Source: a virus. From it: a stretch of 64,000 nucleotides of DNA. Made by a program: the position numbers and the translations under genes. The stretch is taken from the UHGV virus genome UHGV-0112973; one strand, given 5' to 3'. This document shows, piece by piece, positions 3,787 through 24,186 of the stretch (positions within the stretch are counted from its first letter, which is position 1; every line of letters begins with the position of its first letter). The notes beneath the pieces are model-generated. The model was not told the origin of the DNA, made no database searches, and worked only from the letters and a program-made list of their open reading frames with translations.

Positions 3787-3818
3787 ATATTTTTAAAGCG
3801 TGATGTACACTCATCGCG

Positions 3819-3835
3819 TTTTTTATTAGAGCAAT
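3819..3835 (-). promoter_or_regulatory. C1 operator-like site (TTTTTTATTAGAGCAAT)
   Basis: Reverse-orientation operator 32 bp from the previous one; just upstream of ORF starting at 3850. Confidence 0.55.
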
Positions 3836-3849
3836 CTACAAGGTGCACT

Positions 3850-4068
3850 ATGTGGCCATTCCGACGGAAATATCACTACTGGCTGATCGCCTTTGTTACG
3901 CCGACCGGCGGTATCAGGCATGTCATCACCAGGTATCGCAACAAGAGACTCACCTTAGCCAGAATTTTACAGGCTGCCATAGGTGAGGGACTGGATACAA
4001 ATTGCGTAGTCCTTCCTCCTTCATACTTAGGAAAAATGACCGAAGCACAAGCTAATACGGAACTTTGA
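3850..4068 (+). CDS. small hypothetical protein
   Basis: 72 aa; ATG preceded by AAGGTG; first gene after the operator pair. Confidence 0.3.
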   Translation: MWPFRRKYHYWLIAFVTPTGGIRHVITRYRNKRLTLARILQAAIGEGLDTNCVVLPPSYLGKMTEAQANTEL

Positions 4069-4069
4069 A

Positions 4070-5332
4070 ATGAGCACTTCAGCACAAAACCAATCAATCG
4101 AAAATGTATGTATCCCTGATGTCCTGAATGCCGGTATCCCGGCCATTATCCAGAACATCCGGGCCGCGCAACGCCGCGTTAGTTGTGATGACCTCACAGC
4201 ACGTTTTTTTGATAATGCGGTTCAGTCAGCGGAGATGCTTCACGCACAGCTTATTGATGTTTATAACGCAGAAGCTGATAGCCATAACTCCCTGGTAGAT
4301 GCAGCTGAAAATATGCAGTTGGATCTCGGTCTGAAGGGTAAAGAAATTGAAGAGCTTCAGCTGGAAATTGAACATTTGAAACGCCAGCAACAGGACGCGA
4401 TCGACGATGCGACGCATGACGCCAACCAGCGTGCTGATAATGCCGAACGTATAAGCATTGAGCTGGAAACAAAACTCAATGAAATGACCGCGATGGTTGA
4501 ACTGCGGAACTCACAGATTTCAACGCTAAAATCTCAATATAAAGAGATCATGAAACTTGATCCTTTTAACCTTGAGAAACGCTATAACAAAGCTAAAAGC
4601 GAGCGACAGGAACTGCGTAAGCAAGTCGCCGACCTTAACCAACAGCTCAAAAAAACTATTAAAGATGCAAGCGAGGCGCGCGTGGCATTTGCTAATAAAA
4701 AAGCAGAGGTTACCGCGCTGGTTAATGAGAATGCCAAATTTGCGACGCTCAAGAAGGAAATGTATGGCATTACTGAGCGCCGTTTCCCTGCAAGCAAACT
4801 TCATCCGACGTTAGGGCAAATCTCCTTCTTCCCGCGCCTCCTGGCTTATGGGATCTCATCGCCTAAAGAGTTCAATAACGAGCGTCCTTATATCGTTTCT
4901 AAGCTGGACTTTGCTTATCAGTTCTGCTGCGACATGGGCTATGCCATTGATATCCGGATCAACGAATGGTTGATGCCAAACTTCCAGCCGTTGGCCATTT
5001 TCCGCGAGTTCCAGCCGGAAGGTTGGGTAGAGTTCTTCCATGAATTGATCTGTAAAGAGATGGAAAGCCGCCGCCCGGAACTGGTCCGTCGTGTCGAGTG
5101 GGCGCAAGAGGTTATGTTGGCAGATGCAGAGCTACCGTTCGAACCGGAATTTATTGATGAACTGGCAACTAAAGGGTTGCATACCCTGTTTGATGTGGTT
5201 ACCCGCCGTCATGAGCAGTTGGTTGTCGAATTGGGTTTAGAGGAAACAGCGGCAAGAAGACTTCTCGATGTTTGCTATGCACGTAGCGATGCATGGGAAA
5301 AAGAGAACGGCGGCACTATTTACGTCCGCTGA
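4070..5332 (+). CDS. hypothetical coiled-coil protein
   Basis: 420 aa; long heptad-like central region (LQLEIEHLKRQQQD...); followed by a hairpin terminator. Confidence 0.45.
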   Translation: MSTSAQNQSIENVCIPDVLNAGIPAIIQNIRAAQRRVSCDDLTARFFDNAVQSAEMLHAQLIDVYNAEADSHNSLVDAAENMQLDLGLKGKEIEELQLEIEHLKRQQQDAIDDATHDANQRADNAERISIELETKLNEMTAMVELRNSQISTLKSQYKEIMKLDPFNLEKRYNKAKSERQELRKQVADLNQQLKKTIKDASEARVAFANKKAEVTALVNENAKFATLKKEMYGITERRFPASKLHPTLGQISFFPRLLAYGISSPKEFNNERPYIVSKLDFAYQFCCDMGYAIDIRINEWLMPNFQPLAIFREFQPEGWVEFFHELICKEMESRRPELVRRVEWAQEVMLADAELPFEPEFIDELATKGLHTLFDVVTRRHEQLVVELGLEETAARRLLDVCYARSDAWEKENGGTIYVR

Positions 5333-5405: not shown

Positions 5406-5912
5406 TTGAGTATTTTCAATAAACACGCACACCAGGAACGTCCGTATATCGTCATAGTCGATATTGATGGAACAATATCAGAGGCAACTGAAGACAGACT
5501 GCATTTGCTTCCGCCACTAGGTAAAGGTGCATTAACAAAGGACTGGAACGAGTTTAATCTCGCCTGTGACACCGATACTCCCATCACTCCAGTTATTGAT
5601 ATGGTGCGCCAGTTATTTAACGTTTACACGGTCTGGTTTGTAACCGGGCGCTGTGAGATCGCAAGGGATAAAACACGAGTCTGGCTGCGGAAGTACGTAA
5701 CAAACGGGGCTGAGCCTTTGCTATCTATGCGTCCTGCCACCGATGACAGAAATGACGGCCCAGCAAAGATTGATCTCCTTAAGAAAATTGGTCTAAGTAA
5801 AATCGCGTTCGCGCTGGAAGATAAGATTGAAGTGGCGCGTGTTTTCAGGAGGCACGGCGTGCTTACGTTAATGGTCAGGGAGTATGAAAATGCGCTTCTT
5901 CATCAACAATAA
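5406..5912 (+). CDS. HAD-superfamily phosphatase-like protein
   Basis: 168 aa; N-terminal VIVDIDGT (HAD motif I DxDGT); TTG start after GAGGAG. Confidence 0.45.
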   Translation: MSIFNKHAHQERPYIVIVDIDGTISEATEDRLHLLPPLGKGALTKDWNEFNLACDTDTPITPVIDMVRQLFNVYTVWFVTGRCEIARDKTRVWLRKYVTNGAEPLLSMRPATDDRNDGPAKIDLLKKIGLSKIAFALEDKIEVARVFRRHGVLTLMVREYENALLHQQ

Positions 5913-5928
5913 TTGCTCTAATAAATCT
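5912..5928 (+). promoter_or_regulatory. C1 operator-like site (ATTGCTCTAATAAATCT, 16/17)
   Basis: Near-consensus operator upstream of ORF 6107. Confidence 0.6.
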
Positions 5929-6106
5929 TGATTTTTAAAACAGGGAAAGTGAAAATAAAAACATGCCGCAAGGCGCGGCATGTATCCAATCAATCACAGG
6001 AGCTGAAAATATGAACACGGCATTCAAAATCATTATGGCCGCGATCTATTTCTGGCTGTTCTCTATCACTTTTGGCGGCATCGTCGCGCATGGGTAAGGG
6101 GGATGC

Positions 6107-6685
6107 ATGAAAGGCGAAGTGAAAGAGCGCGGCATGATTTTCAACGATGAGATGGTCCGGGCAATTCTTGGCGGGAATAAAACACAGACTCGCAGGATTG
6201 TTGAAGAAAAATTCTATGGACGGGCAGTGGCCGCAGAGTTGCTTGCTAAGCATTGTCCATATGGTCAACCGGGCGATCGTATTTGGGTTCGCGAAACCTA
6301 CCGGGTACATGGCAAAGCGACGGACGTCGCAACGCTGGTTTATCGCGCAAGCGTGCGTAACTCCTGGACAGAACAAACGCACCGGGTTCCGGTCGAGGTT
6401 TGTAATAAACCAGTATCAGAAAAGTGGACGCCATCAATTCACATGCCGCGCTGGGCATCGCGCATTCTTCTGGAAATTACCGACGTGCGTGTGGAACGGC
6501 TGCGTGATATGAGCGAGGCAGATGCTAAAGCAGAAGGCGCATCTCCGGCGATGTACAAAATTACGCCGCCGGAAGCTGTTTATCGCGTTGGTTTTGGTGA
6601 TATCTGGCGCAGTATTTACGGGCAGGATAACTGGCTATCTAACCCGTGGGTATGGGTAATCGAGTTTAAGCGCATTCAGGAATAA
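6107..6685 (+). CDS. ASCH-like (PUA-fold) domain protein
   Basis: 192 aa; N-terminal EMVRAILGGNKTQTRR block typical of prophage ASCH-domain proteins. Confidence 0.45.
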   Translation: MKGEVKERGMIFNDEMVRAILGGNKTQTRRIVEEKFYGRAVAAELLAKHCPYGQPGDRIWVRETYRVHGKATDVATLVYRASVRNSWTEQTHRVPVEVCNKPVSEKWTPSIHMPRWASRILLEITDVRVERLRDMSEADAKAEGASPAMYKITPPEAVYRVGFGDIWRSIYGQDNWLSNPWVWVIEFKRIQE

Positions 6686-6768
6686 ACCGTGAGTATGCAT
6701 CAAATCGTCAGTTTTTCAGGTGGACGAGCATCGGCCTGTCTCGTTCATCTGTTCGAAGAGGTAGTGGC

Positions 6769-6972
6769 ATGACAATCGTAAAAACCCATACCGGCACCGT
6801 GATCACCAAAGACGGTCCGCAGGTAAAAAAACTGCACCAAACAGAGCGGATGTGGGTCGTCGGCAAAAATGAGTTTTACCACAAAGATACCGGACGCCGC
6901 CATTTTGCAGAAAATACGCGCCGCCGACTGCTGTTAGACACCATCAAGCCTATCGAGGTGAAGCATGTTTAA
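6769..6972 (+). CDS. hypothetical protein
   Basis: 67-aa ORF, ATG start, tightly packed with the next gene. Confidence 0.3.
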   Translation: MTIVKTHTGTVITKDGPQVKKLHQTERMWVVGKNEFYHKDTGRRHFAENTRRRLLLDTIKPIEVKHV

Positions 6973-7204
6973 ACAGAACGAAAAAGCTATCGCTCAAATT
7001 GCTGATTATATCCCGCGTGCGTGCCGGGGTATGCAGTTGCAGGAAGCCAAAGCGCGCCTGGAGAAAAAAATTGCGCTCTATATTGATGACGGCTGTGATG
7101 CCGCCGTTCTTAACGCGGCGTTCGCACCAGCTCTTAACTGTCACACTCGGGAGTCTTTTTTTTCATGCATCGAAGCGCAACTCCGCAAAGGAGGCAACCA
7201 GTGA
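6965..7204 (+). CDS. hypothetical protein
   Basis: 79-aa ORF; start overlaps stop of previous ORF. Confidence 0.3.
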   Translation: MFKQNEKAIAQIADYIPRACRGMQLQEAKARLEKKIALYIDDGCDAAVLNAAFAPALNCHTRESFFSCIEAQLRKGGNQ

Positions 7205-7926
7205 GCCAGATTGATTATCAAAAGCTTCGTGAAATCGCTGAAAAAACAAAAATTGCCGGTGAAGCACCTGTAATGCCTTTCGATCAGCGAATTAATGCGC
7301 TTAACGATTTTATGAAGCACTTTTCGCCAGATATCGCGCTGGCATTGTTGGATGAACGGGAAAGAAACCAGCAATACATCAAACGCCGCGACCAGGAGAA
7401 CGAGGATATTGCGCTTACGGTTGGGAGGCTGCGCGTTGAGCTGGAAGGCAAAGACAGCAAAATAGCCAATCTTACCGCCGAACGCGATGCTCTTCGCGAA
7501 GGTGAGATAGGCGACGCCAGGCATAGCAACACACGGGCCGCAGCTGATATCTACTTCCAACTGGTCGAGGAGTGCGAAATTCCTGCTGGCGGATCTCTGG
7601 TCGAGTACGTTGACGATATGCGCGAGAAGCTGGAAGCCGCAGAGAAGCGCATTGCAGAACTGGAAGCACGGGAAATAAAACCAGCCAAAGGCGAAGTTCT
7701 TGTCGTTGTCTCTGGTTTTACTGGTTGCGGGAAAAGCGCCATTGCCGGGGAAATAGAAATTGCGATGAAAGCTATTGGTGTGCCGGTTCAATGGACTAAT
7801 GGCGATGCAGAAAAGCATATGACCGGCGCTGACTGGCTGACAGCGATTGAGATGTACAAACCAACTGTGCGCATCGTGGAAGTTAATGTGCCACGCGCCG
7901 CTGGCATTCGCATCAAAGGAGAGTGA
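7201..7926 (+). CDS. coiled-coil protein with C-terminal P-loop-like motif
   Basis: GTG start 9 nt after GGAGG; coiled-coil centre; SGFTGCGKSA resembles Walker A (GxxxxGKS). Confidence 0.35.
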   Translation: MSQIDYQKLREIAEKTKIAGEAPVMPFDQRINALNDFMKHFSPDIALALLDERERNQQYIKRRDQENEDIALTVGRLRVELEGKDSKIANLTAERDALREGEIGDARHSNTRAAADIYFQLVEECEIPAGGSLVEYVDDMREKLEAAEKRIAELEAREIKPAKGEVLVVVSGFTGCGKSAIAGEIEIAMKAIGVPVQWTNGDAEKHMTGADWLTAIEMYKPTVRIVEVNVPRAAGIRIKGE

Positions 7927-7927
7927 T

Positions 7928-8137
7928 ATGGCTATTGCCGCAAGTTACACCATGCATCTCTATTGTGACTGCCGCCAGTGTACGGAAGGTGTATATCCAG
8001 TGCCAGACTTCGGTGAGTATATCGGTACGTCATGGTCTGGTTGTGCAAAAGAGGCGCGCAAGGATGGCTGGCGAATAAGCAAAGACAAAACGCGTGCTTT
8101 TGCGCCCGGGCATAAAGTTTTGAGGATTAACAAATGA
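7928..8137 (+). CDS. small Cys-containing hypothetical protein
   Basis: ATG after AAGGAGAG RBS; about 69 aa; stop overlaps next gene start. Confidence 0.3.
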   Translation: MAIAASYTMHLYCDCRQCTEGVYPVPDFGEYIGTSWSGCAKEARKDGWRISKDKTRAFAPGHKVLRINK

Positions 8138-8976
8138 CCACTATTACCAAAGAGCGACTGCTGACAATCAAGCAGTGGCGCGAAACATACGGACCTGGTA
8201 GCAACGTTGTACTGCCAGCAGAAGAAGCGGAAGAACTGGCACGGATTGCTCTGGCAGCGCTGGAAGCTGAACCTGTTCTGTATCAGTCCTGCACTCGCCC
8301 CACTTGGAATAGCGGTGTTCCGTGGACGGAATGGAAAGAACGTAGTCGTGAGGGCTACGAAAACGATTTGCGCTTTACAGACACGCCTGACCATGCCGGT
8401 TGGATAAACAAATGCCGAAAACTATATACCACTCCGCCAGTTCCTGTAATACAGGCTGATGTCGCGCAGGCAATTGAAAAACTCAAACGGAAATTAGTGG
8501 AATGCAATCGCTATAACTACTGCGCAGATGCAGTTAAGGGCGTTGAGTATGCCTGCCACGCTGCCATGCTTCAGGGTAGCCAACCTGTAAGCCAAACTTA
8601 CAAGTTTCCAGTTAATACACCTTGCCAGGATGCGCCAGCCCATATCTGGCTGCAAACAGCTGGAGTATGGCCAGAAGATGGCGAGTTAAGCGAATTAACG
8701 TGGTGCAGCCACAATCAGCACCATGATGACACGCTATATGTTCGAGCTGACCTTGTGAATGGCAACTATCCGGTAACTCCGGATGGTTGGATAAGCTGTA
8801 GTGAGCGAATGCCCGCTCAAGATGATTGGATTTTAATTTATTCAAAGCACGGTGAGTATATGGCAGGACAGGTGCAAGGGGAATACGTGGAGTTGAGCGA
8901 CGGCACTTTATCGTGGTTAGGGAACGCCTTGTTCTGGATGCTGCTACCAGAACCTCCCCAGGAGGCAGGTCAATGA
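8134..8976 (+). CDS. DUF551 domain protein
   Basis: 280 aa; C-terminal ...WISCSERMP...FWMLLPEPP matches the DUF551 hallmark (W..LPEPP). Confidence 0.5.
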   Translation: MTTITKERLLTIKQWRETYGPGSNVVLPAEEAEELARIALAALEAEPVLYQSCTRPTWNSGVPWTEWKERSREGYENDLRFTDTPDHAGWINKCRKLYTTPPVPVIQADVAQAIEKLKRKLVECNRYNYCADAVKGVEYACHAAMLQGSQPVSQTYKFPVNTPCQDAPAHIWLQTAGVWPEDGELSELTWCSHNQHHDDTLYVRADLVNGNYPVTPDGWISCSERMPAQDDWILIYSKHGEYMAGQVQGEYVELSDGTLSWLGNALFWMLLPEPPQEAGQ

Positions 8977-9058
8977 GCTGGCCTGAAGCATTCGCAACGG
9001 TAGGAATTGTGATGGCGGCAGCACTGGGTTTGTATTCAATTTGTCGCTGGTGGTAACG

Positions 9059-9292
9059 ATGGGGAAATTAACTTTTGTAGTCGAATTTGAGGATGGTAAA
9101 GAGCCACCTGTTAGCGCCAATCTTGATGTTGCTGGTGGCAGGCTTGTTTCGGTTCTATTTGGTGACTACCGAGATGACTTCTTCCAACCAGAAGAAGTTG
9201 ATGTAGTGCGAGAGGCATTAAACGAGTTAAGTGTTGACAACGATGATGCTCATGCGGAAATCATCGAAAAAATGGAACTGCTAACTCACTAA
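9059..9292 (+). CDS. hypothetical acidic protein
   Basis: 77 aa from internal ATG of track ORF 9041-9292. Confidence 0.3.
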   Translation: MGKLTFVVEFEDGKEPPVSANLDVAGGRLVSVLFGDYRDDFFQPEEVDVVREALNELSVDNDDAHAEIIEKMELLTH

Positions 9293-9340
9293 ATTAGAAA
9301 TTATGGTGCTATCACCTACGGCAACGAGAGAAATTTTATA

Positions 9341-9463
9341 ATGTCAAAAGTAAATGTTTTGATTTTTTCAGTAATTGTAGGTTTTGGTTTTTCTGCTGGA
9401 GTGCATATTTATATTACGTGGGGAAAAATCATCAACTACGTATGGAGTTGTTTTATTAAGTGA
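9341..9463 (+). CDS. small hydrophobic peptide (40 aa)
   Basis: MSKVNVLIFSVIVGFGFSAGVHIYITW..., one predicted TM helix; AT-rich context; below the ORF-track size cutoff. Confidence 0.25.
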   Translation: MSKVNVLIFSVIVGFGFSAGVHIYITWGKIINYVWSCFIK

Positions 9464-9470
9464 GGTAAGT

Positions 9471-9764
9471 ATGTGGAGAGGTAATAGTCATGGCAAAAGC
9501 CAGATGATACTTACCGAATATCAGTTTGACCATAAAACCAATAAATCACGTTCAGTATATTTGCTTCGGCACAATAGCCGCGTAAGGAATACCGTGCTGG
9601 AGCAAAATCTGACTGTTGAAATGGATAATTACGGGGGCTTCAAGCCAACAATTTCGCTTGATGATTTTCCTCGTGGTTTAAGCGAAAGAGAAGCAATGCT
9701 GAAATTAGCAGAATGGCTACAAAGATTAAGCATTGCTATTGAAGATAACTGGTCTGAACCTTAA
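9471..9764 (+). CDS. hypothetical protein
   Basis: 97 aa from internal ATG of track ORF 9384-9764; AT-rich island. Confidence 0.3.
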   Translation: MWRGNSHGKSQMILTEYQFDHKTNKSRSVYLLRHNSRVRNTVLEQNLTVEMDNYGGFKPTISLDDFPRGLSEREAMLKLAEWLQRLSIAIEDNWSEP

Positions 9765-9770
9765 ATTTAT

Positions 9771-10145
9771 ATGATGACACTAAAACATTTTCTTGACCGC
9801 CCATTATGGGCGGCAGCCGCAGGCTATGACTTTAATTATATGGATTGCATGTCTTATACCGCCAATGCATACGACCATTCCTTCAGTCTGCTGTTTAATT
9901 CTTTAAGAATATTGCCGCAAACAGAAGTTGGAGAGCTTCATTTATGGCTATTGGGCTTTATCGCGGCTGGAGTTGGTATTGCTGTATGGCCTTTTATTTT
10001 CTGGCTGGTGGCTGTTGTAGTGTGGTTTAAGTGCAAGACGTACCGGAAAAAGTATTTCTTAGGTGATGGAATGACTGATATTGCCAAAATGAACATTGAA
10101 AAATGGACTAAGGAATGTGAAAAGAAATGGCGCAAAAAGAAATGA
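9771..10145 (+). CDS. small membrane protein (two predicted TM helices)
   Basis: 124 aa; hydrophobic stretch LWLLGFIAAGVGIAVWPFIFWLVAVVVWF; lysine-rich C-terminus. Confidence 0.35.
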   Translation: MMTLKHFLDRPLWAAAAGYDFNYMDCMSYTANAYDHSFSLLFNSLRILPQTEVGELHLWLLGFIAAGVGIAVWPFIFWLVAVVVWFKCKTYRKKYFLGDGMTDIAKMNIEKWTKECEKKWRKKK

Positions 10146-10786
10146 CTACTCTAACGACAGCATACTTACAGCAATTGGTATTTTTTGCAGGCGAGGCTAC
10201 TTGTCATCCTGACGCAAACTATTTATTGGAATTTGAGAGGTTAGCGTCACCCGGTATCGTTCTGGAACTGGCCCAACAGGTGCTGGCCTTAAGACAAAAA
10301 GAGCAACATGAAAGTAATACGTGTAGATTGAACTTTGAGCAGTGGCTGGAACAGCAACGCGGAAAAATCGATGTGGACTGTGGTTGTGTGTCTACTGAAA
10401 CATTCATGCACTGGCTGCGGGTAGCTTACGAGGCTGGCAACTATCCGGATATTCCGGATAGTTCGGTGCCAGGGCCAGGAAAGGGCGTCACCGGTGAACG
10501 TATCCGCATTAAGCCGCATGTTTATCGCGAACTGGTTAACCGTCTCCACGATACAGCGATCAAGTGTGCTGGCACCCAGCAATTACGAGAAAGAATTAGC
10601 CGTGTTTTGGGCGACGTTATTAAGCCAGACCATCATAAACAAGCCGAGAAAAGTGGCCTGGAAAGGTGTCACCTTGAGGCGGCATTAAACATTAACCCGG
10701 GGCATACGCTTGGCATTATTGATGCACTATTGGTTCATAAGATGGCCAGGGCTTTATTGCCGCTGGTAGGGGGCAATGACAACTAG
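10127..10786 (+). CDS. hypothetical protein
   Basis: 219 aa; overlaps end of previous gene; no recognised domain. Confidence 0.35.
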   Translation: MAQKEMTTLTTAYLQQLVFFAGEATCHPDANYLLEFERLASPGIVLELAQQVLALRQKEQHESNTCRLNFEQWLEQQRGKIDVDCGCVSTETFMHWLRVAYEAGNYPDIPDSSVPGPGKGVTGERIRIKPHVYRELVNRLHDTAIKCAGTQQLRERISRVLGDVIKPDHHKQAEKSGLERCHLEAALNINPGHTLGIIDALLVHKMARALLPLVGGNDN

Positions 10787-10870
10787 GAAAAAATCGCATT
10801 ACTGGTGGCAAAGCCATAACTACTGATACAATATTTCTAGGTTAAAGATCTGGCATTAGGTAGAGATAGC

Positions 10871-11335
10871 ATGTTTCTTCATATCAATCCCGATTGGGCA
10901 TCAGCTATTGCGGCATTTGGGTCAGCAATAGCTGCTTTTATTAGTTTGCGCACAAGTAAAAATCTTGGATTATTCGATAAGGAAAAATTTTATAGTGAAG
11001 CATTGATAAACTTTGCTGATAGGGCAAATAAAATAGCAACAGGAAAAGCTGGATCAGACTGGGATGTTAATGACGCAAGTAATATAATTCTTTCACTAAA
11101 TGCCGCAAAAGAAACTATTGAAAGTGCGCCAAAACCTATTCGAGAGAAACTAAAACAATATTACAAACATAATCTTTGCCATGAGATCATAACTGAATTA
11201 GAGGCTCACTCTCCCCCAGATTCAGTAATTGTAAGAGAACCATCAGAGTATGAAGGCAAGATCATGGGATTGTGGGATGAGATTAAAATATTTCTGGGTT
11301 ATACAGTGGTATCAGAAGCAGACCTTGAAGATTAA
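10871..11335 (+). CDS. hypothetical protein with N-terminal TM segment
   Basis: 154 aa; N-terminal WASAIAAFGSAIAAFISL hydrophobic helix; directly upstream of phd-doc. Confidence 0.35.
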   Translation: MFLHINPDWASAIAAFGSAIAAFISLRTSKNLGLFDKEKFYSEALINFADRANKIATGKAGSDWDVNDASNIILSLNAAKETIESAPKPIREKLKQYYKHNLCHEIITELEAHSPPDSVIVREPSEYEGKIMGLWDEIKIFLGYTVVSEADLED

Positions 11336-11479
11336 AGTTTGGTGTGACCACATCATTTCATCAATGATGCCCGAAGTGGGGAGTTTGACGATTGTCCGGT
11401 GATTTAAGCTGCAAAGTGCTGGTGCTTTATGCTTGTGAAGTTTATAATTGTGTACACATAACGAGTACACGAGGTGTTT

Positions 11480-11701
11480 ATGCAATCCATTAACTTCCGT
11501 ACCGCGCGCGGCAACCTTAGCGAAGTGCTCAATAATGTTGAAGCAGGGGAAGAGGTTGAAATCACCCGCAGAGGCCGTGAGCCAGCAGTAATTGTCAGCA
11601 AGGCTACTTTTGAAACCTACAAAAAAGCGGCGCTGGATGCTGAATTTGCATCCCTGTTTGACACCCTGGACTCCACCAACAAGGAACTGGTTAACCGATA
11701 A
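11480..11701 (+). CDS. phd: Phd antitoxin (prevent host death)
   Basis: 73 aa [39 protein letters not shown]... recognised as P1 Phd; ATGA overlap with doc. Confidence 0.9.
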
Positions 11702-12081
11702 TGAGGCATATATCACCGGAAGAACTTATTGCGCTTCATGATGCGAATATAAACCGCTACGGCGGCCTGCCGGGAATGTCAGATCCGGGTAGGGCTGAGG
11801 CCATTATCGGGAGAGTTCAGGCCAGAGTTGCCTACGAAGAGATCACCGACCTTTTCGAAGTCTCCGCCACCTACCTGGTGGCTACAGCGAGAGGGCATAT
11901 ATTCAATGATGCCAATAAGCGTACCGCGCTAAACAGTGCGCTGCTATTTCTACGCCGTAACGGGGTGCAGGTATTTGATTCACCAGAACTGGCAGACCTT
12001 ACCGTAGGGGCTGCGACCGGAGAGATATCTGTATCTACTGTCGCCGCCACGTTACGTAGATTGTATGGTTCTGCGGAGTAG
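11701..12081 (+). CDS. doc: Doc toxin (death on curing; Fic-fold kinase)
   Basis: 126 aa [22 protein letters not shown]...; length and sequence as recalled for P1 Doc; follows phd. Confidence 0.9.
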
Positions 12082-22737: not shown

Positions 22738-23379
22738 ATGGATAAGAAAATATGCGTTGTTTCGATGAGCGTCGGCAAACCGGCGTCAATGACTGCTGCA
22801 TGGATCAATAACGAGCTGATAATGGCTGAGCGGACCAGCTACCCTGAACGCCGCCGCGATATGGAACTCCAGCTGCTGCGCGAATTGCGAGAAAAAGAGG
22901 AAAAGGGTTTTATCGTGCTGGTGGAAGAGGAAAACAGCTTTATTACTGGTCGAGTTGGCCAGCGTGTAAGGTTGCGCGATCCCTTCATGAACGGCAGGCC
23001 GGTACTGATTGAAGCAATGCAGATTTACAAGGAGCTGGAACGCCAGAAAGCGATCAAGTTACCGCGCAAGGAATCCGGCAAATACATCCTCCACCAAAGC
23101 ATCTTCGATTCCGAACACGATAAAAAAGGCGATGAATTTTTCAACATCAACTGGAGCGAAATAACGACAGAGCATGTTCTGACGTTACTATGTTGCTTTG
23201 CGACGGAATACAACAACGTTGCCAGCGCCGACTACATCAGGGCAATGGCTGGAGAAGTTGAAGCCCGCCAGGAACCATCGTTACTAAGTCCACTTATTAA
23301 CATAATTCTGGGTACCCAGACACTGGAACAAAAAAAAGTGCCGAAAGGGGTATTAACAGGCAAGCATAATTATTTCTAA
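22738..23379 (+). CDS. hypothetical protein (position of P1 mat)
   Basis: 213 aa from ATG after AGGGGG; track ORF extends to 22591; no recognised domain. Confidence 0.35.
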   Translation: MDKKICVVSMSVGKPASMTAAWINNELIMAERTSYPERRRDMELQLLRELREKEEKGFIVLVEEENSFITGRVGQRVRLRDPFMNGRPVLIEAMQIYKELERQKAIKLPRKESGKYILHQSIFDSEHDKKGDEFFNINWSEITTEHVLTLLCCFATEYNNVASADYIRAMAGEVEARQEPSLLSPLINIILGTQTLEQKKVPKGVLTGKHNYF

Positions 23380-23577
23380 TAATTTATAGTGGGGACTTTT
23401 GATGGTGTAAAACCCCATGAATTATTATTTTTTAGTTTTTTGATTCTATTTTTTTTGCATTACCCGTCATAAAAATGAGCTTGCTTACATAATAGAAAAT
23501 TATTTTATCAACACTATTACAACAAACGATTATCACTGATAACATGAGTCCTTTGAAAACAAAGGACTCACCATACT

Positions 23578-24186
23578 ATGTCTAATACCTCGGCAAATGA
23601 AATTGTACCGCACTTACCGCTAATTTTCGAAAATGAAGCTAATGGGATTCTTCAGGATCTGGCCTATACTCCATCGCTTATGGGGTTGATGATGTTCCCG
23701 ACAGAAGAGGAGCTGAAAGCAGCGAGAAGCTACATAATTAACGTTTTTGAAGAGTGTTACCGAGCCGGTCATTTGCGCATTATGGGCTTTACTAATGAAG
23801 AAAACTTGTTCGGATACGCCTTAATCTTCGGACATCCATCGGGAAATTTTCCGTTGTACTGTCATAAAATATATGTATATGAGCAATATCGTGGTAATGG
23901 ACTTGGAAGTAATATACTGGCAGAAATACTTGCATTTCCAAATGAGGTCGCTTTGATTTGCCAGTCTGATTTGGTTCCTTTTTATGAATCAGCCGGAATG
24001 CACTTTAAAGGAAATTACACCACTCCATCAGTCGCCAATTTCAAAAAAACTCGCGGCATGTATGAGGGGCTTTGTTTGATGAGCACTGAAAAAAATGCAA
24101 ACTCTAATGGTGTACCTATATTCATGCTGAACGATAACGATATTGATAACATCATACAGGCTATCGCATCATCGGCACCACGATAA
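23578..24186 (+). CDS. GNAT-family N-acetyltransferase
   Basis: 202 aa; acetyl-CoA-binding-like segment YVYEQYRGNGLGSNILAEIL; AT-rich flanks. Confidence 0.55.
   Translation: MSNTSANEIVPHLPLIFENEANGILQDLAYTPSLMGLMMFPTEEELKAARSYIINVFEECYRAGHLRIMGFTNEENLFGYALIFGHPSGNFPLYCHKIYVYEQYRGNGLGSNILAEILAFPNEVALICQSDLVPFYESAGMHFKGNYTTPSVANFKKTRGMYEGLCLMSTEKNANSNGVPIFMLNDNDIDNIIQAIASSAPR

What the first reader, a model, noticed from the sequence alone, without database searches (positions are those of the whole stretch)
9341..11335. AT-rich island of small membrane and unknown proteins upstream of phd-doc
About 2 kb of visibly lower GC content encodes five tightly packed plus-strand ORFs: a 40-aa TM peptide, a 97-aa protein, a 124-aa two-TM protein with Lys-rich tail, and 219-aa and 154-aa proteins, the last with an N-terminal TM helix. 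None has a domain I can name and no C1 operator precedes them, so they may be expressed in the lysogen. This is the architecture of superinfection-exclusion or abortive-infection cargo. From recollection P1 has humD, lxr and hot here; no UmuD-like or theta-like protein is present.
Basis: partly seen in the sequence, partly recalled or inferred. Interest (0 to 1): 0.6.

Follow-up and report, generated by a model that had tools for sequence, protein, structure and literature searches.

The report
Mosaic accessory genes in P1 hotspot
The "island" is the tail end of an already-described swap-prone region of P1-like phage-plasmids: four common, uncharacterised early-operon genes, plus one rare inserted gene for a membrane-anchored protein that replaced the usual DNA-repair genes; nothing links any of them to a known phage-defence system.

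Summary
The five plus-strand ORFs exist as described, and humD, lxr and hot are absent. The region's GC is 0.41 against 0.48 for the window, but this comes from two low-GC blocks split by an average-GC gene.

It is not one island. It lies in the published hot-spot of P1-like phage-plasmids (RD-5, variable region 8).

**ORFs A–D (9341–10786)** end a tightly packed array that starts at the PpmgT promoters and a C1 operator at 5912–5928. They are probably repressed in the lysogen and expressed early in lytic growth. The B–C block occurs in about 40% of P1-like plasmids, and D's C-terminus is P1 PmgU. Relatives of B and C sit in early operons of other phages.

**ORF E (10871–11335)** is different:
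- It lies on a 570-bp cassette found in about 1.3% of P1-like plasmids.
- The cassette replaced pmgV through humD and left a humD remnant.
- E belongs to a small family of N-out/C-in membrane-anchored helical proteins with moron-like features in lambdoid prophages.
- Two family members sit next to known defence genes.

No protein matches Pfam, PADLOC or a specific solved fold.

The defence reading is unsupported for A–D and only circumstantial for E. Interest is modest.

The parts
5912..5928 (+). C1 repressor operator (homologue of P1 OpmgT/Op88) overlapping the PpmgT promoters, at the head of the plus-strand array that ends with A-D
   Evidence: 16/17 match to ATTGCTCTAATAAATTT. Window 5801-6198 is 96.5% identical to the P1 segment annotated with OpmgT and P1/P2pmgT.
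6011..9292 (+). Upstream part of the same array: tiny TM ORF (6011-6097), PmgT homologue (6107-6685), two small ORFs, Ead/Ea22 (7165-7926), 7928-8137, DUF551 protein (8134-8976), tiny TM ORF (8973-9056), acidic 77-aa ORF (9059-9292)
   Evidence: ORF lists, Pfam and PHROG hits, BLASTP to P1 PmgT at 44%, PGAP annotation of the identical plasmid.
9341..9463 (+). A: 40-aa single-TM peptide, GC 0.30
   Evidence: phrog_5525, E 8e-21. TM at residues 3-26. Annotated as a CDS in phage vB_EcoM-813R1 and in E. albertii p06-3542. The g9059-A block is in about 220 plasmids.
9471..9764 (+). B: 97-aa soluble protein, four-stranded sheet plus C-terminal helix
9771..10145 (+). C: 124-aa membrane protein with a hydrophobic hairpin (53-89) and a Lys-rich C-terminal tail
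   Evidence: phrog_2638, E 3e-63. Hydropathy. Homologues lie in early, replication and nin arrays of Yersinia, Klebsiella, Proteus and Morganella phages. Replaced by a 58-aa two-TM ORF in E. albertii and E. marmotae plasmids.
10127..10786 (+). D: 219-aa mosaic protein; residues 114-219 are P1 PmgU, the N-terminal part is a phrog_60/924 module
   Evidence: BLASTP 88.7% to PmgU residues 1-106. PHROG hits. 96.9% DNA identity to RCS47, where it is annotated 'putative morphogenetic protein'.
10768..11337 (+). 570-bp low-GC replacement cassette carrying E; it supplies the last 6 codons of D, an 84-bp spacer and E
   Evidence: Identical breakpoints against P1, RCS47 and vB_EcoM-813R1. Found in 9 of 72,556 plasmids and 10 of 5,426 E. 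coli genomes, always on P1-like plasmids. GC 0.37.
10805..10832 (+). Promoter-like site upstream of E (GTGGCA, 16-nt spacer, TGaTACAAT extended -10)
   Evidence: The number of promoter-like sites in the region is not above the shuffled expectation, so this is a lead only.
10871..11335 (+). E: 154-aa protein with an N-terminal Ala-rich membrane anchor (N-out/C-in), a cytoplasmic all-helical domain and an acidic C-terminal DLxD tail
   Evidence: phrog_1779. 21 representative clusters in 1.84 billion proteins. Alignment A1. AF2 pLDDT 86.7. Anchor and positive-inside pattern family-wide. No fold or sequence match.
11338..11406 (+). 3' remnant of humD with a 1-bp frameshift
   Evidence: Aligns to the end of P1 humD and translates to FGVTT... 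then, in the next frame...INDARSGEFDDCPVI*, against P1 HumD ...FGVITHVINDARSGEFDDCPVI*.
11474..12081 (+). phd-doc addiction module (context; conserved right flank)

Best explanation
The finding covers two unrelated things inside the known exchange hot-spot of P1-like phage-plasmids (pap to humD).

(1) A, B, C and D are the last four genes of a 13-ORF plus-strand array. The array is transcribed from the PpmgT promoters, which the C1 operator at 5912-5928 overlaps. In the lysogen C1 keeps them off. After induction or infection they are made early, together with lambdoid-type 'ea/nin'-like accessory genes (Ead/Ea22, DUF551). They are dispensable accessory genes for early lytic growth, such as host takeover or counter-defence. 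Two of them (A, C) act at the inner membrane.

(2) E is a moron-type cassette. It replaced pmgV-upfMNO-hot-lxr-humD by recombination inside the 3' ends of the pmgU-like gene and of humD. It probably has its own extended -10 promoter and no operator, so it can be made in the lysogen as well as by read-through. The protein is tethered to the inner membrane by an N-out/C-in anchor. It presents a cytoplasmic helical bundle with a conserved acidic C-terminal peptide. My best guess is that it holds a host or phage partner at the membrane as a lysogenic-conversion or exclusion function.

Shown: anatomy, homologies, junctions, distribution and predicted topology. Inferred: the transcription pattern and all functions.
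For: Hot-spot:
- Published as RD-5 (pap-lxr, low G+C) and as variable region 8 (pmgT...humD).
- At least four different cargos follow a near-identical A-D block.

A-D as part of the operon:
- C1 operator at 5912-5928, with the P1 PpmgT segment 96.5% conserved.
- Continuous co-directional ORFs with gaps of at most 7 bp or overlaps, except gaps of 83 and 48 bp.
- No plus-strand promoter-like site or terminator between 6500 and 10233.
- No LexA box or late-promoter palindrome nearby.
- B homologues overlap their neighbours in early prophage operons. C homologues lie among exonuclease, helicase, primase and nin genes.
- The corresponding P1 genes pmgT to humD are non-essential.

E as a cassette:
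- Identical breakpoints against three relatives, and a humD remnant.
- GC 0.36 and GC3 0.24 against flanks at 0.48.
- Rare: 9 of about 660-680 pmgS-positive plasmids.
- 99% identical in E. albertii and E. marmotae plasmids whose flanks are 96-97% identical.
- Promoter-like site in its own spacer.

E-family moron traits:
- GC is lower than the flanks in 10 of 11 loci.
- Spacers lie on both sides of the gene.
- A hairpin plus T-run terminator follows directly in L008, L010, L019 and L021.
- Family members neighbour Abi_2 and PD-lambda-1/SNIPE in the P-nin hot-spot.

Topology: a 19-26-residue uncharged segment with 0-1 K/R before it and 2-6 after it, across the family. The helical model is confident.
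Against: - No transcription data exist. The promoter-like site upstream of E is a consensus match in a region where such matches are not enriched (8 found, 9.4 expected).
- E has no terminator in the window and is co-oriented with the C1-controlled array. It could be just another early gene.
- E homologues are always co-oriented with early operons.
- E's own anchor is the weakest in its family (KD19 1.49).
- No homology supports any specific function.
- An internal promoter for A-D cannot be excluded by a consensus scan.
Confidence: 0.55

Rival explanations
1. One reading: the whole 2-kb block is lysogen-expressed superinfection-exclusion or abortive-infection cargo built from small membrane proteins.
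For: Three of the five products have hydrophobic segments. GC is low. The region is a cargo hot-spot next to a toxin-antitoxin module. There is no operator within the block itself.
Against: - A C1 operator and the PpmgT promoters head the same uninterrupted array, and no promoter-like site precedes A-C.
- A-D are not one unit. Blocks g9059-A-B-C, B-C-D and E have different distributions, and C is swapped independently.
- Relatives of B and C are in early lytic operons.
- There are no PADLOC hits for the window proteins. For the E family there are only stray single-member hits at E of about 0.002-0.008, each to a different model. No PHROG family with an annotated function is hit.
Confidence: 0.1
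2. E is not a moron. It is one more early-lytic accessory gene, transcribed only by read-through from PpmgT. It acts on the host replication or SOS machinery, functionally replacing hot, lxr and humD.
For: - E is co-oriented with the array, and no terminator separates D from E or follows E.
- Family members are always co-oriented inside pL- or pR-type operons. They recur next to theta homologues (L011-L013, L019), DinI (L023), a LexA-DNA-binding-domain protein (L006) and Dam methylases (L006, L010).
- In the window E occupies exactly the hot-lxr-humD slot.
- The conserved acidic C-terminal peptide could be a docking motif.
Against: - The consistent compositional contrast, the spacers on both sides and the immediate intrinsic terminators in four loci are unusual for coupled early genes.
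- A membrane anchor is not expected for a replisome or SOS modulator.
- Adjacency to theta or DinI may only reflect a shared hot-spot.
Confidence: 0.28
3. The ORFs, especially the 40-aa A and the AT-rich E, are non-functional or decaying sequence in a recombination scar.
For: PGAP does not call A in the identical plasmid pS51_2. The cassette junctions cut through genes and leave a frameshifted humD remnant. There are too few substitutions to measure selection on E: 3-4 nonsynonymous against 1-2 synonymous.
Against: - Every ORF matches a PHROG family end to end, with E-values from 8e-21 to 3e-63.
- The E family keeps an invariant Trp, conserved motifs and a confident fold at 28-41% identity.
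- B has 22 invariant columns across 27 sequences.
- A is annotated elsewhere.
Confidence: 0.04

Closest known systems
P1-like phage-plasmid variable region 8 (pmgT-pmgU-pmgV-upfMNO-hot-lxr-humD), also called RD-5 (pap-lxr)
   Same: Same position between pap and phd-doc, the same association with low G+C, and the same behaviour of alternative gene sets between conserved flanks.
   Different: This particular content has not been described. A long lambdoid-like array is followed by a single-gene cassette in place of the whole pmgV-humD segment. The papers treat the region only at the level of gene presence and absence.
Phage RCS47, SJ46 and vB_EcoM-813R1 (Punavirus) versions of the same region
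   Same: B-C-D is 96.9% identical to RCS47. g9059-A-B-C is 97.5% identical to 813R1.
   Different: Those phages keep hot and/or humD after D. The window has E instead.
Morons of lambdoid phages (an extra gene with its own promoter and terminator and atypical composition, inserted between conserved genes; Hendrix/Juhala definition, from my own knowledge)
   Same: E is present or absent between conserved flanks, has GC3 of 0.24, has a spacer with a promoter-like site, and its family members carry their own terminators.
   Different: There is no terminator in the window copy. Promoter activity and lysogenic expression are untested.
Single-gene membrane exclusion proteins of temperate phages (P22 SieA, lambda SieB, HK97 gp15, P1 Sim; from my own knowledge)
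   Same: A small, membrane-anchored, accessory, prophage-borne protein. Family members lie beside Abi_2 and PD-lambda-1/SNIPE.
   Different: No sequence similarity to any annotated PHROG or PADLOC family. The predicted bulk of the protein is cytoplasmic. No phenotype is known.
P1 PmgU / PmgT ('putative morphogenetic function')
   Same: D residues 114-219 are 89% identical to PmgU. g6107 is 44% identical to PmgT.
   Different: D has an extra 113-residue N-terminal module. In P1 the pmgT/pmgU overlap looks like a deletion scar of a longer array. The 'morphogenetic' label is only putative, and both genes are non-essential.

Membership tests
P1-like variable region 8 / RD-5 | Lies between pap and phd-doc on a P1-like backbone | tested here: met
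   pap homologue ends at 5912 and phd starts at 11474. Flanks are 96-97% identical to P1. Definitions are in PMC9603915 and PMC6906374.
P1-like variable region 8 / RD-5 | Alternative gene contents between conserved flanks, associated with low G+C | tested here: met
   Four different cargos in the D-phd slot. GC is 0.37-0.38 in two blocks.
C1-controlled PpmgT operon (A-D) | C1 operator overlapping the promoter at the head of the transcription unit | tested here: met
   16/17 operator match at 5912-5928, homologous to annotated OpmgT and P1/P2pmgT.
C1-controlled PpmgT operon (A-D) | A-D are co-transcribed from that promoter, with no internal promoter or terminator | tested here: inconclusive
   Contiguous co-directional ORFs, and no consensus promoter or terminator on the plus strand between 6500 and 10233. 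Consensus scans cannot prove co-transcription.
Moron (E) | Extra gene present in some related genomes and absent in others, between conserved neighbours | tested here: met
Moron (E) | Nucleotide composition distinct from the flanks | tested here: met
   GC 0.36 and GC3 0.24 against 0.48. The same trend holds in 10 of 11 family loci.
Moron (E) | Own promoter | tested here: inconclusive
   An extended -10-like site at 10805-10832, which is not above chance. Upstream -10-like hexamers occur in 7 of 11 family loci (8 of 11 counting extended -10 matches), but these are AT-rich spacers.
Moron (E) | Own terminator | tested here: not met
   No hairpin plus T-run between 11336 and 11473. The cassette ends 2 bp after the stop codon. 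Terminators are present after homologues in L008, L010, L019 and L021.
Moron (E) | Expressed from the repressed prophage | not testable with these tools
   Needs RNA-seq or reporter fusions in a lysogen.
Known anti-phage defence or Abi systems (PADLOC-DB v2) | Significant match to a defence-protein HMM | tested here: not met
   No hit at E <= 1 for A-E. Among the 21 E-family members there are only stray single-member hits at E of about 0.002-0.008 to different models.
Superinfection-exclusion proteins (SieA, SieB, gp15, Sim, Imm) | Sequence or profile similarity to a characterised exclusion protein | tested here: not met
   All PHROG hits are to 'unknown function' families. There are no Pfam or NCBIfam hits and no fold match in PDB or BFVD.
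Superinfection-exclusion proteins (SieA, SieB, gp15, Sim, Imm) | Inner-membrane location | tested here: inconclusive
   Predicted anchors only: A 3-26, C 53-89, E 7-26 (KD 1.49; family 1.45-2.49).
Superinfection-exclusion proteins (SieA, SieB, gp15, Sim, Imm) | Blocks infection by other phages when expressed | not testable with these tools
   Needs a phage challenge of cells carrying the cloned genes.
P1 PmgU (D) | Full-length homology to PmgU | tested here: met
   D residues 114-219 against PmgU residues 1-106 of 111, 88.7% identity. D carries an additional N-terminal module.

The most novel reading that the evidence does not exclude
E founds an uncharacterised family of single-gene lysogenic-conversion factors shared between lambdoid prophage hot-spots and the humD slot of P1-like phage-plasmids. 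It would be a membrane-tethered cytoplasmic helical protein whose conserved acidic C-terminal peptide captures a phage or host factor at the membrane, giving exclusion of, or defence against, other phages. This would be a new defence or exclusion gene family absent from current catalogues.
Probability: 0.2. Interest if true: 0.55.

Novelty: new member of a known kind. Interest (0 to 1): 0.3.

Why it matters
P1-like phage-plasmids are common in Escherichia and Salmonella and move resistance genes, so knowing what their hot-spots carry is useful.

- **Regulation.** Most of the flagged block is ordinary, widely shared early-operon cargo under C1 control. The absence of a local operator should not be read as lysogenic expression.
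- **Loss of SOS input.** A minority lineage has lost the SOS and replisome module (hot, lxr, humD and its LexA box) in exchange for one membrane-anchored protein of unknown function. This changes how these plasmids could respond to DNA damage.
- **A candidate to test.** E's small family has moron traits and sits beside Abi_2 and SNIPE in lambdoid hot-spots. That makes it a cheap single-gene candidate for a defence or exclusion screen. The payoff would be an incremental addition to a crowded field.

Tried and rejected
- **HMM libraries.** Pfam, NCBIfam, PHROGs and PADLOC scans of all five proteins and three neighbours gave only 'unknown function' PHROGs. Per-member scans of the E family gave nothing consistent.
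- **PDB sequence searches.** Profile or sequence searches for the E family, the B family, C and D found nothing.
- **A B-E gene pair.** I asked whether the 97-99-aa ORFs preceding E homologues are B relatives. They are not.
- **Regulatory and RNA signals.** No LexA box, no late-promoter -22 palindrome and no Rfam family in the island. Repeats there are only short chance-level matches.
- **Profile-based locus search.** It failed for the E alignment because no stretch is conserved enough.
- **dN/dS on E.** Only 5-6 substitutions are available, which is uninformative.
- **Literature.** No mention of the RefSeq accessions or PHROG ids, none in the DefensePredictor supplements, and Brenes & Laub 2025 is not held.
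- **Holin-like reading of C.** A TM plus a basic tail suggested it. I rejected it because C relatives lie in early replication arrays and match no annotated holin family.
Full report

The window is a P1-like phage-plasmid. Region 9000-11500 is 100% identical to several ~93-99-kb E. coli plasmids, such as pS51_2 (NZ_CP015997). Parts of it match Punavirus genomes at 95-97%.

The five plus-strand ORFs exist at the stated coordinates:
- A, 9341-9463, 40 aa
- B, 9471-9764, 97 aa
- C, 9771-10145, 124 aa
- D, 10127-10786, 219 aa
- E, 10871-11335, 154 aa

phd (11474-11701) and doc (11701-12081) follow.

GC of 9341-11335 is 0.412 against 0.481 for the window, in the lowest 3.1% of same-size windows. 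The dip is not uniform. Two low-GC blocks (9293-10126 at 0.381; 10768-11337 at 0.370) flank gene D, which is at 0.483.

Hydropathy confirms a TM in A and a 37-residue hydrophobic hairpin plus a Lys-rich tail in C. E's N-terminal helix is borderline on its own.

No UmuD-like or theta-like protein is present.

**2. Where it sits**

P1 has pap, then OpmgT/PpmgT, pmgT, pmgU, pmgV, upfM/N/O, hot, lxr, humD, phd and doc.

Two papers already define this stretch as a recombination hot-spot of P1-like elements tied to low G+C. They call it RD-5 (pap-lxr; PMC6906374) and variable region 8 (pmgT...humD; PMC9603915). A CRISPRi screen scored every tested P1 gene from pmgT to humD as non-essential; upfM was not tested (PMC10695390).

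Plasmids with an almost identical A-D block carry at least four different cargos between D and phd:
- the P1-type pmgV/theta/lxr/humD set
- a six-ORF set with a DNA-binding protein
- a toprim-containing set
- the single gene E

**3. The block is a mosaic of three histories**

Pairwise BLAST shows:
- 8760-10146 (g9059, A, B, C) is 97.5% identical to phage vB_EcoM-813R1.
- 9465-10767 (B, C, D) is 96.9% identical to RCS47.
- P1 itself shares only 10426-10767 and everything from 11338 on.

In PLSDB about 660-680 plasmids carry the conserved P1 gene pmgS. Of these:
- 254-310 carry B-C.
- About 220 carry g9059-A.
- Only 9 carry the E cassette. In complete E. coli genomes it is in 10 of 5,426, always on a plasmid and never on a chromosome.

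C can be swapped independently. In E. albertii and E. marmotae plasmids a 58-aa two-TM ORF takes its place while B, D and E remain.

**4. A-D are the end of a C1-controlled early array**

A 16/17 match to the C1 operator lies at 5912-5928, directly after pap. It sits in a segment 96.5% identical to the P1 DNA annotated with OpmgT (Op88) and the two PpmgT promoters.

From there to 10786 the plus strand is filled with 13 ORFs. Junctions are overlaps or gaps of at most 7 bp, except two gaps of 83 and 48 bp. The array holds:
- a PmgT homologue (44% identity)
- Ead/Ea22 and DUF551 proteins
- two tiny unannotated TM ORFs

The consensus scan finds no plus-strand promoter-like site or terminator between 6500 and 10233. 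No LexA box or late-promoter palindrome lies nearby.

So 'no C1 operator precedes them' holds only locally. The simplest reading is that A-D are repressed in the lysogen and expressed early.

Context elsewhere agrees:
- B homologues (128 clusters, all 'hypothetical') overlap their neighbours by 4 bp inside early prophage operons. These lie beside a dNTP pyrophosphohydrolase and an exonuclease, or after the replication genes.
- C homologues lie between exonuclease, helicase, primase or nin genes of Yersinia, Klebsiella and Proteus phages.

D is not novel. Residues 114-219 are 89% identical to P1 PmgU, and its N-terminal part shares PHROG modules with the DUF551 protein.

The B model is a four-stranded sheet plus a helix (pLDDT 81.9). 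It has only weak NTF2/cystatin-like resemblance.

**5. E is a separate replacement cassette**

Against P1, RCS47 and 813R1 the homology stops at 10767 and resumes at 11338.

- The left junction is 19 nt before D's stop codon.
- The right junction is inside humD. Window 11338-11406 still encodes the HumD C-terminus (...INDARSGEFDDCPVI*) with a 1-bp frameshift.

A humD-bearing ancestor therefore lost pmgV-upfMNO-hot-lxr-humD(5'), together with its LexA box, and gained 570 bp.

The cassette has GC 0.37 and E has GC3 0.24. It is 99% identical in plasmids whose flanks are 96-97% identical. This is consistent with recent spread through the conserved flanks.

Its 84-bp spacer contains GTGGCA, a 16-nt spacer and TGaTACAAT. 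This is a plausible extended -10 promoter, but such matches are not enriched in the region. There is no terminator after E.

**6. What E is**

The word-indexed search found only its own cluster. The exhaustive HMMER search of 1.84 billion representatives found 21 clusters, at most 41% identical apart from its own.

The family is about 165 aa and has:
- an Ala-rich N-terminal hydrophobic segment
- an invariant Trp
- a 'RAN...DW.F..AANI' core
- a conserved PD
- in most members, an acidic C-terminal D/E-x-DL-x-D tail

Across the family the hydrophobic segment is 19-26 uncharged residues, with 0-1 K/R before it and 2-6 after it. This indicates an N-out/C-in anchor with the bulk of the protein in the cytoplasm.

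AlphaFold gives a confident all-helical model (pLDDT 86.7, pTM 0.73). It has no specific match:
- Foldseek against BFVD: nothing at E <= 0.001
- PDB profile search: nothing
- Pfam and PADLOC scans of all members: nothing consistent

**7. Context of the E family**

Ten independent loci are nearly all lambdoid-type prophage early regions, and the gene is co-oriented with them (L010 carries a Mu Gp12-like gene):
- after Ead/Ea22 (L008)
- between a Dam methylase and RusA/DUF968/Q (L006)
- between P and NinB, directly upstream of a theta homologue (L011-L013)
- near theta in an early-left operon (L019)
- between DndB-containing early genes and MT-A70, Exc and Int (L021)
- after O-P (L014)
- next to an oppositely oriented Abi_2 gene, DinI and a colicin (L023)
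- next to PD-lambda-1, now called SNIPE, and Rha (L004)

Unlike B, the E-family genes have spacers on both sides and lower GC than the flanks in 10 of 11 loci. In four loci a canonical hairpin plus T-run terminator follows immediately. These are moron traits.

**8. Judgement**

The evolutionary and anatomical account is well supported. Function is not.

- For A-D, I favour C1-repressed, early-lytic accessory roles.
- For E, I favour an autonomously expressed, membrane-tethered lysogenic-conversion or exclusion factor. A purely early-lytic role, perhaps linked to replication or SOS given its recurrent neighbours and the slot it occupies, remains a strong rival.

No literature or catalogue mentions these proteins. 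The one paper most likely to have tested a relative could not be read.

Overall this is a new member of a known kind of feature, namely hot-spot cargo or a moron in a described variable region. It has one modestly interesting orphan family.

Noticed in passing
window 11338-11406: Frameshifted 3' remnant of humD (the last ~23 codons). It shows the direction of the replacement event. The associated LexA box of P1 is gone, and no LexA-box match lies near the island.
   Followed up: yes
window 6011-6097 and 8973-9056: Two tiny ORFs (28 aa and 27 aa). The second is a clear single TM; the first is visibly hydrophobic but its hydropathy was not scored because of a frame error. Both lie inside the same array and are not annotated in the identical RefSeq plasmid. 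Together with A, C and the 58-aa ORF in E. albertii, small membrane peptides are recurrent in this array.
   Followed up: partly
L001 (P1) 3807-4876 versus window 6107-6685 and 10127-10786: P1's overlapping pmgT/pmgU pair looks like a deletion scar. PmgT is the homologue of g6107, and PmgU is the C-terminal two-thirds of a D-like gene whose N-terminus P1 has lost. The ~3.7 kb between them in this window is absent from P1.
   Followed up: partly
L011-L013 (6567-6824 / 907-1164), L019 4028-4270, L023 5760-5993: E-family genes in lambdoid prophages recur next to DNA pol III theta (hot-like) homologues and DinI. These are the same kind of SOS and replisome accessory genes that E replaced in the P1-like backbone.
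   Followed up: partly
alignment A1, C-termini; window 11315-11335: A conserved acidic extreme C-terminus (e.g. SEADLED, TDEDLAD, RDSDLED) in most E-family members, possibly a docking peptide.
   Followed up: no
L032 493-669 (E. albertii p06-3542): A 58-aa two-TM ORF occupies the slot of C between B and the D-like gene, while the E cassette is retained with the same junctions.
   Followed up: partly
window 23276-23971 and 59201-61046: Two other stretches with 570-bp GC <= 0.37. The second is the lowest-GC region of the window. They are probably other P1 variable regions.
   Followed up: no
window-wide (e.g. 146, 3770, 3819, 5912, 13338, 16644, 19288, 19752, 19835, 31685, 35536, 60862, 62533): Thirteen matches to the C1 operator consensus with at most 3 mismatches, against 0.22 expected. 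This fits a complete P1-type immunity regulon.
   Followed up: no
PLSDB typing of pS51_2 and relatives: These P1-like plasmids are typed 'IncHI1B' by MOB-suite in PLSDB, although the literature classes P1-like replicons as IncY or p0111. This is probably a naming artefact.
   Followed up: no
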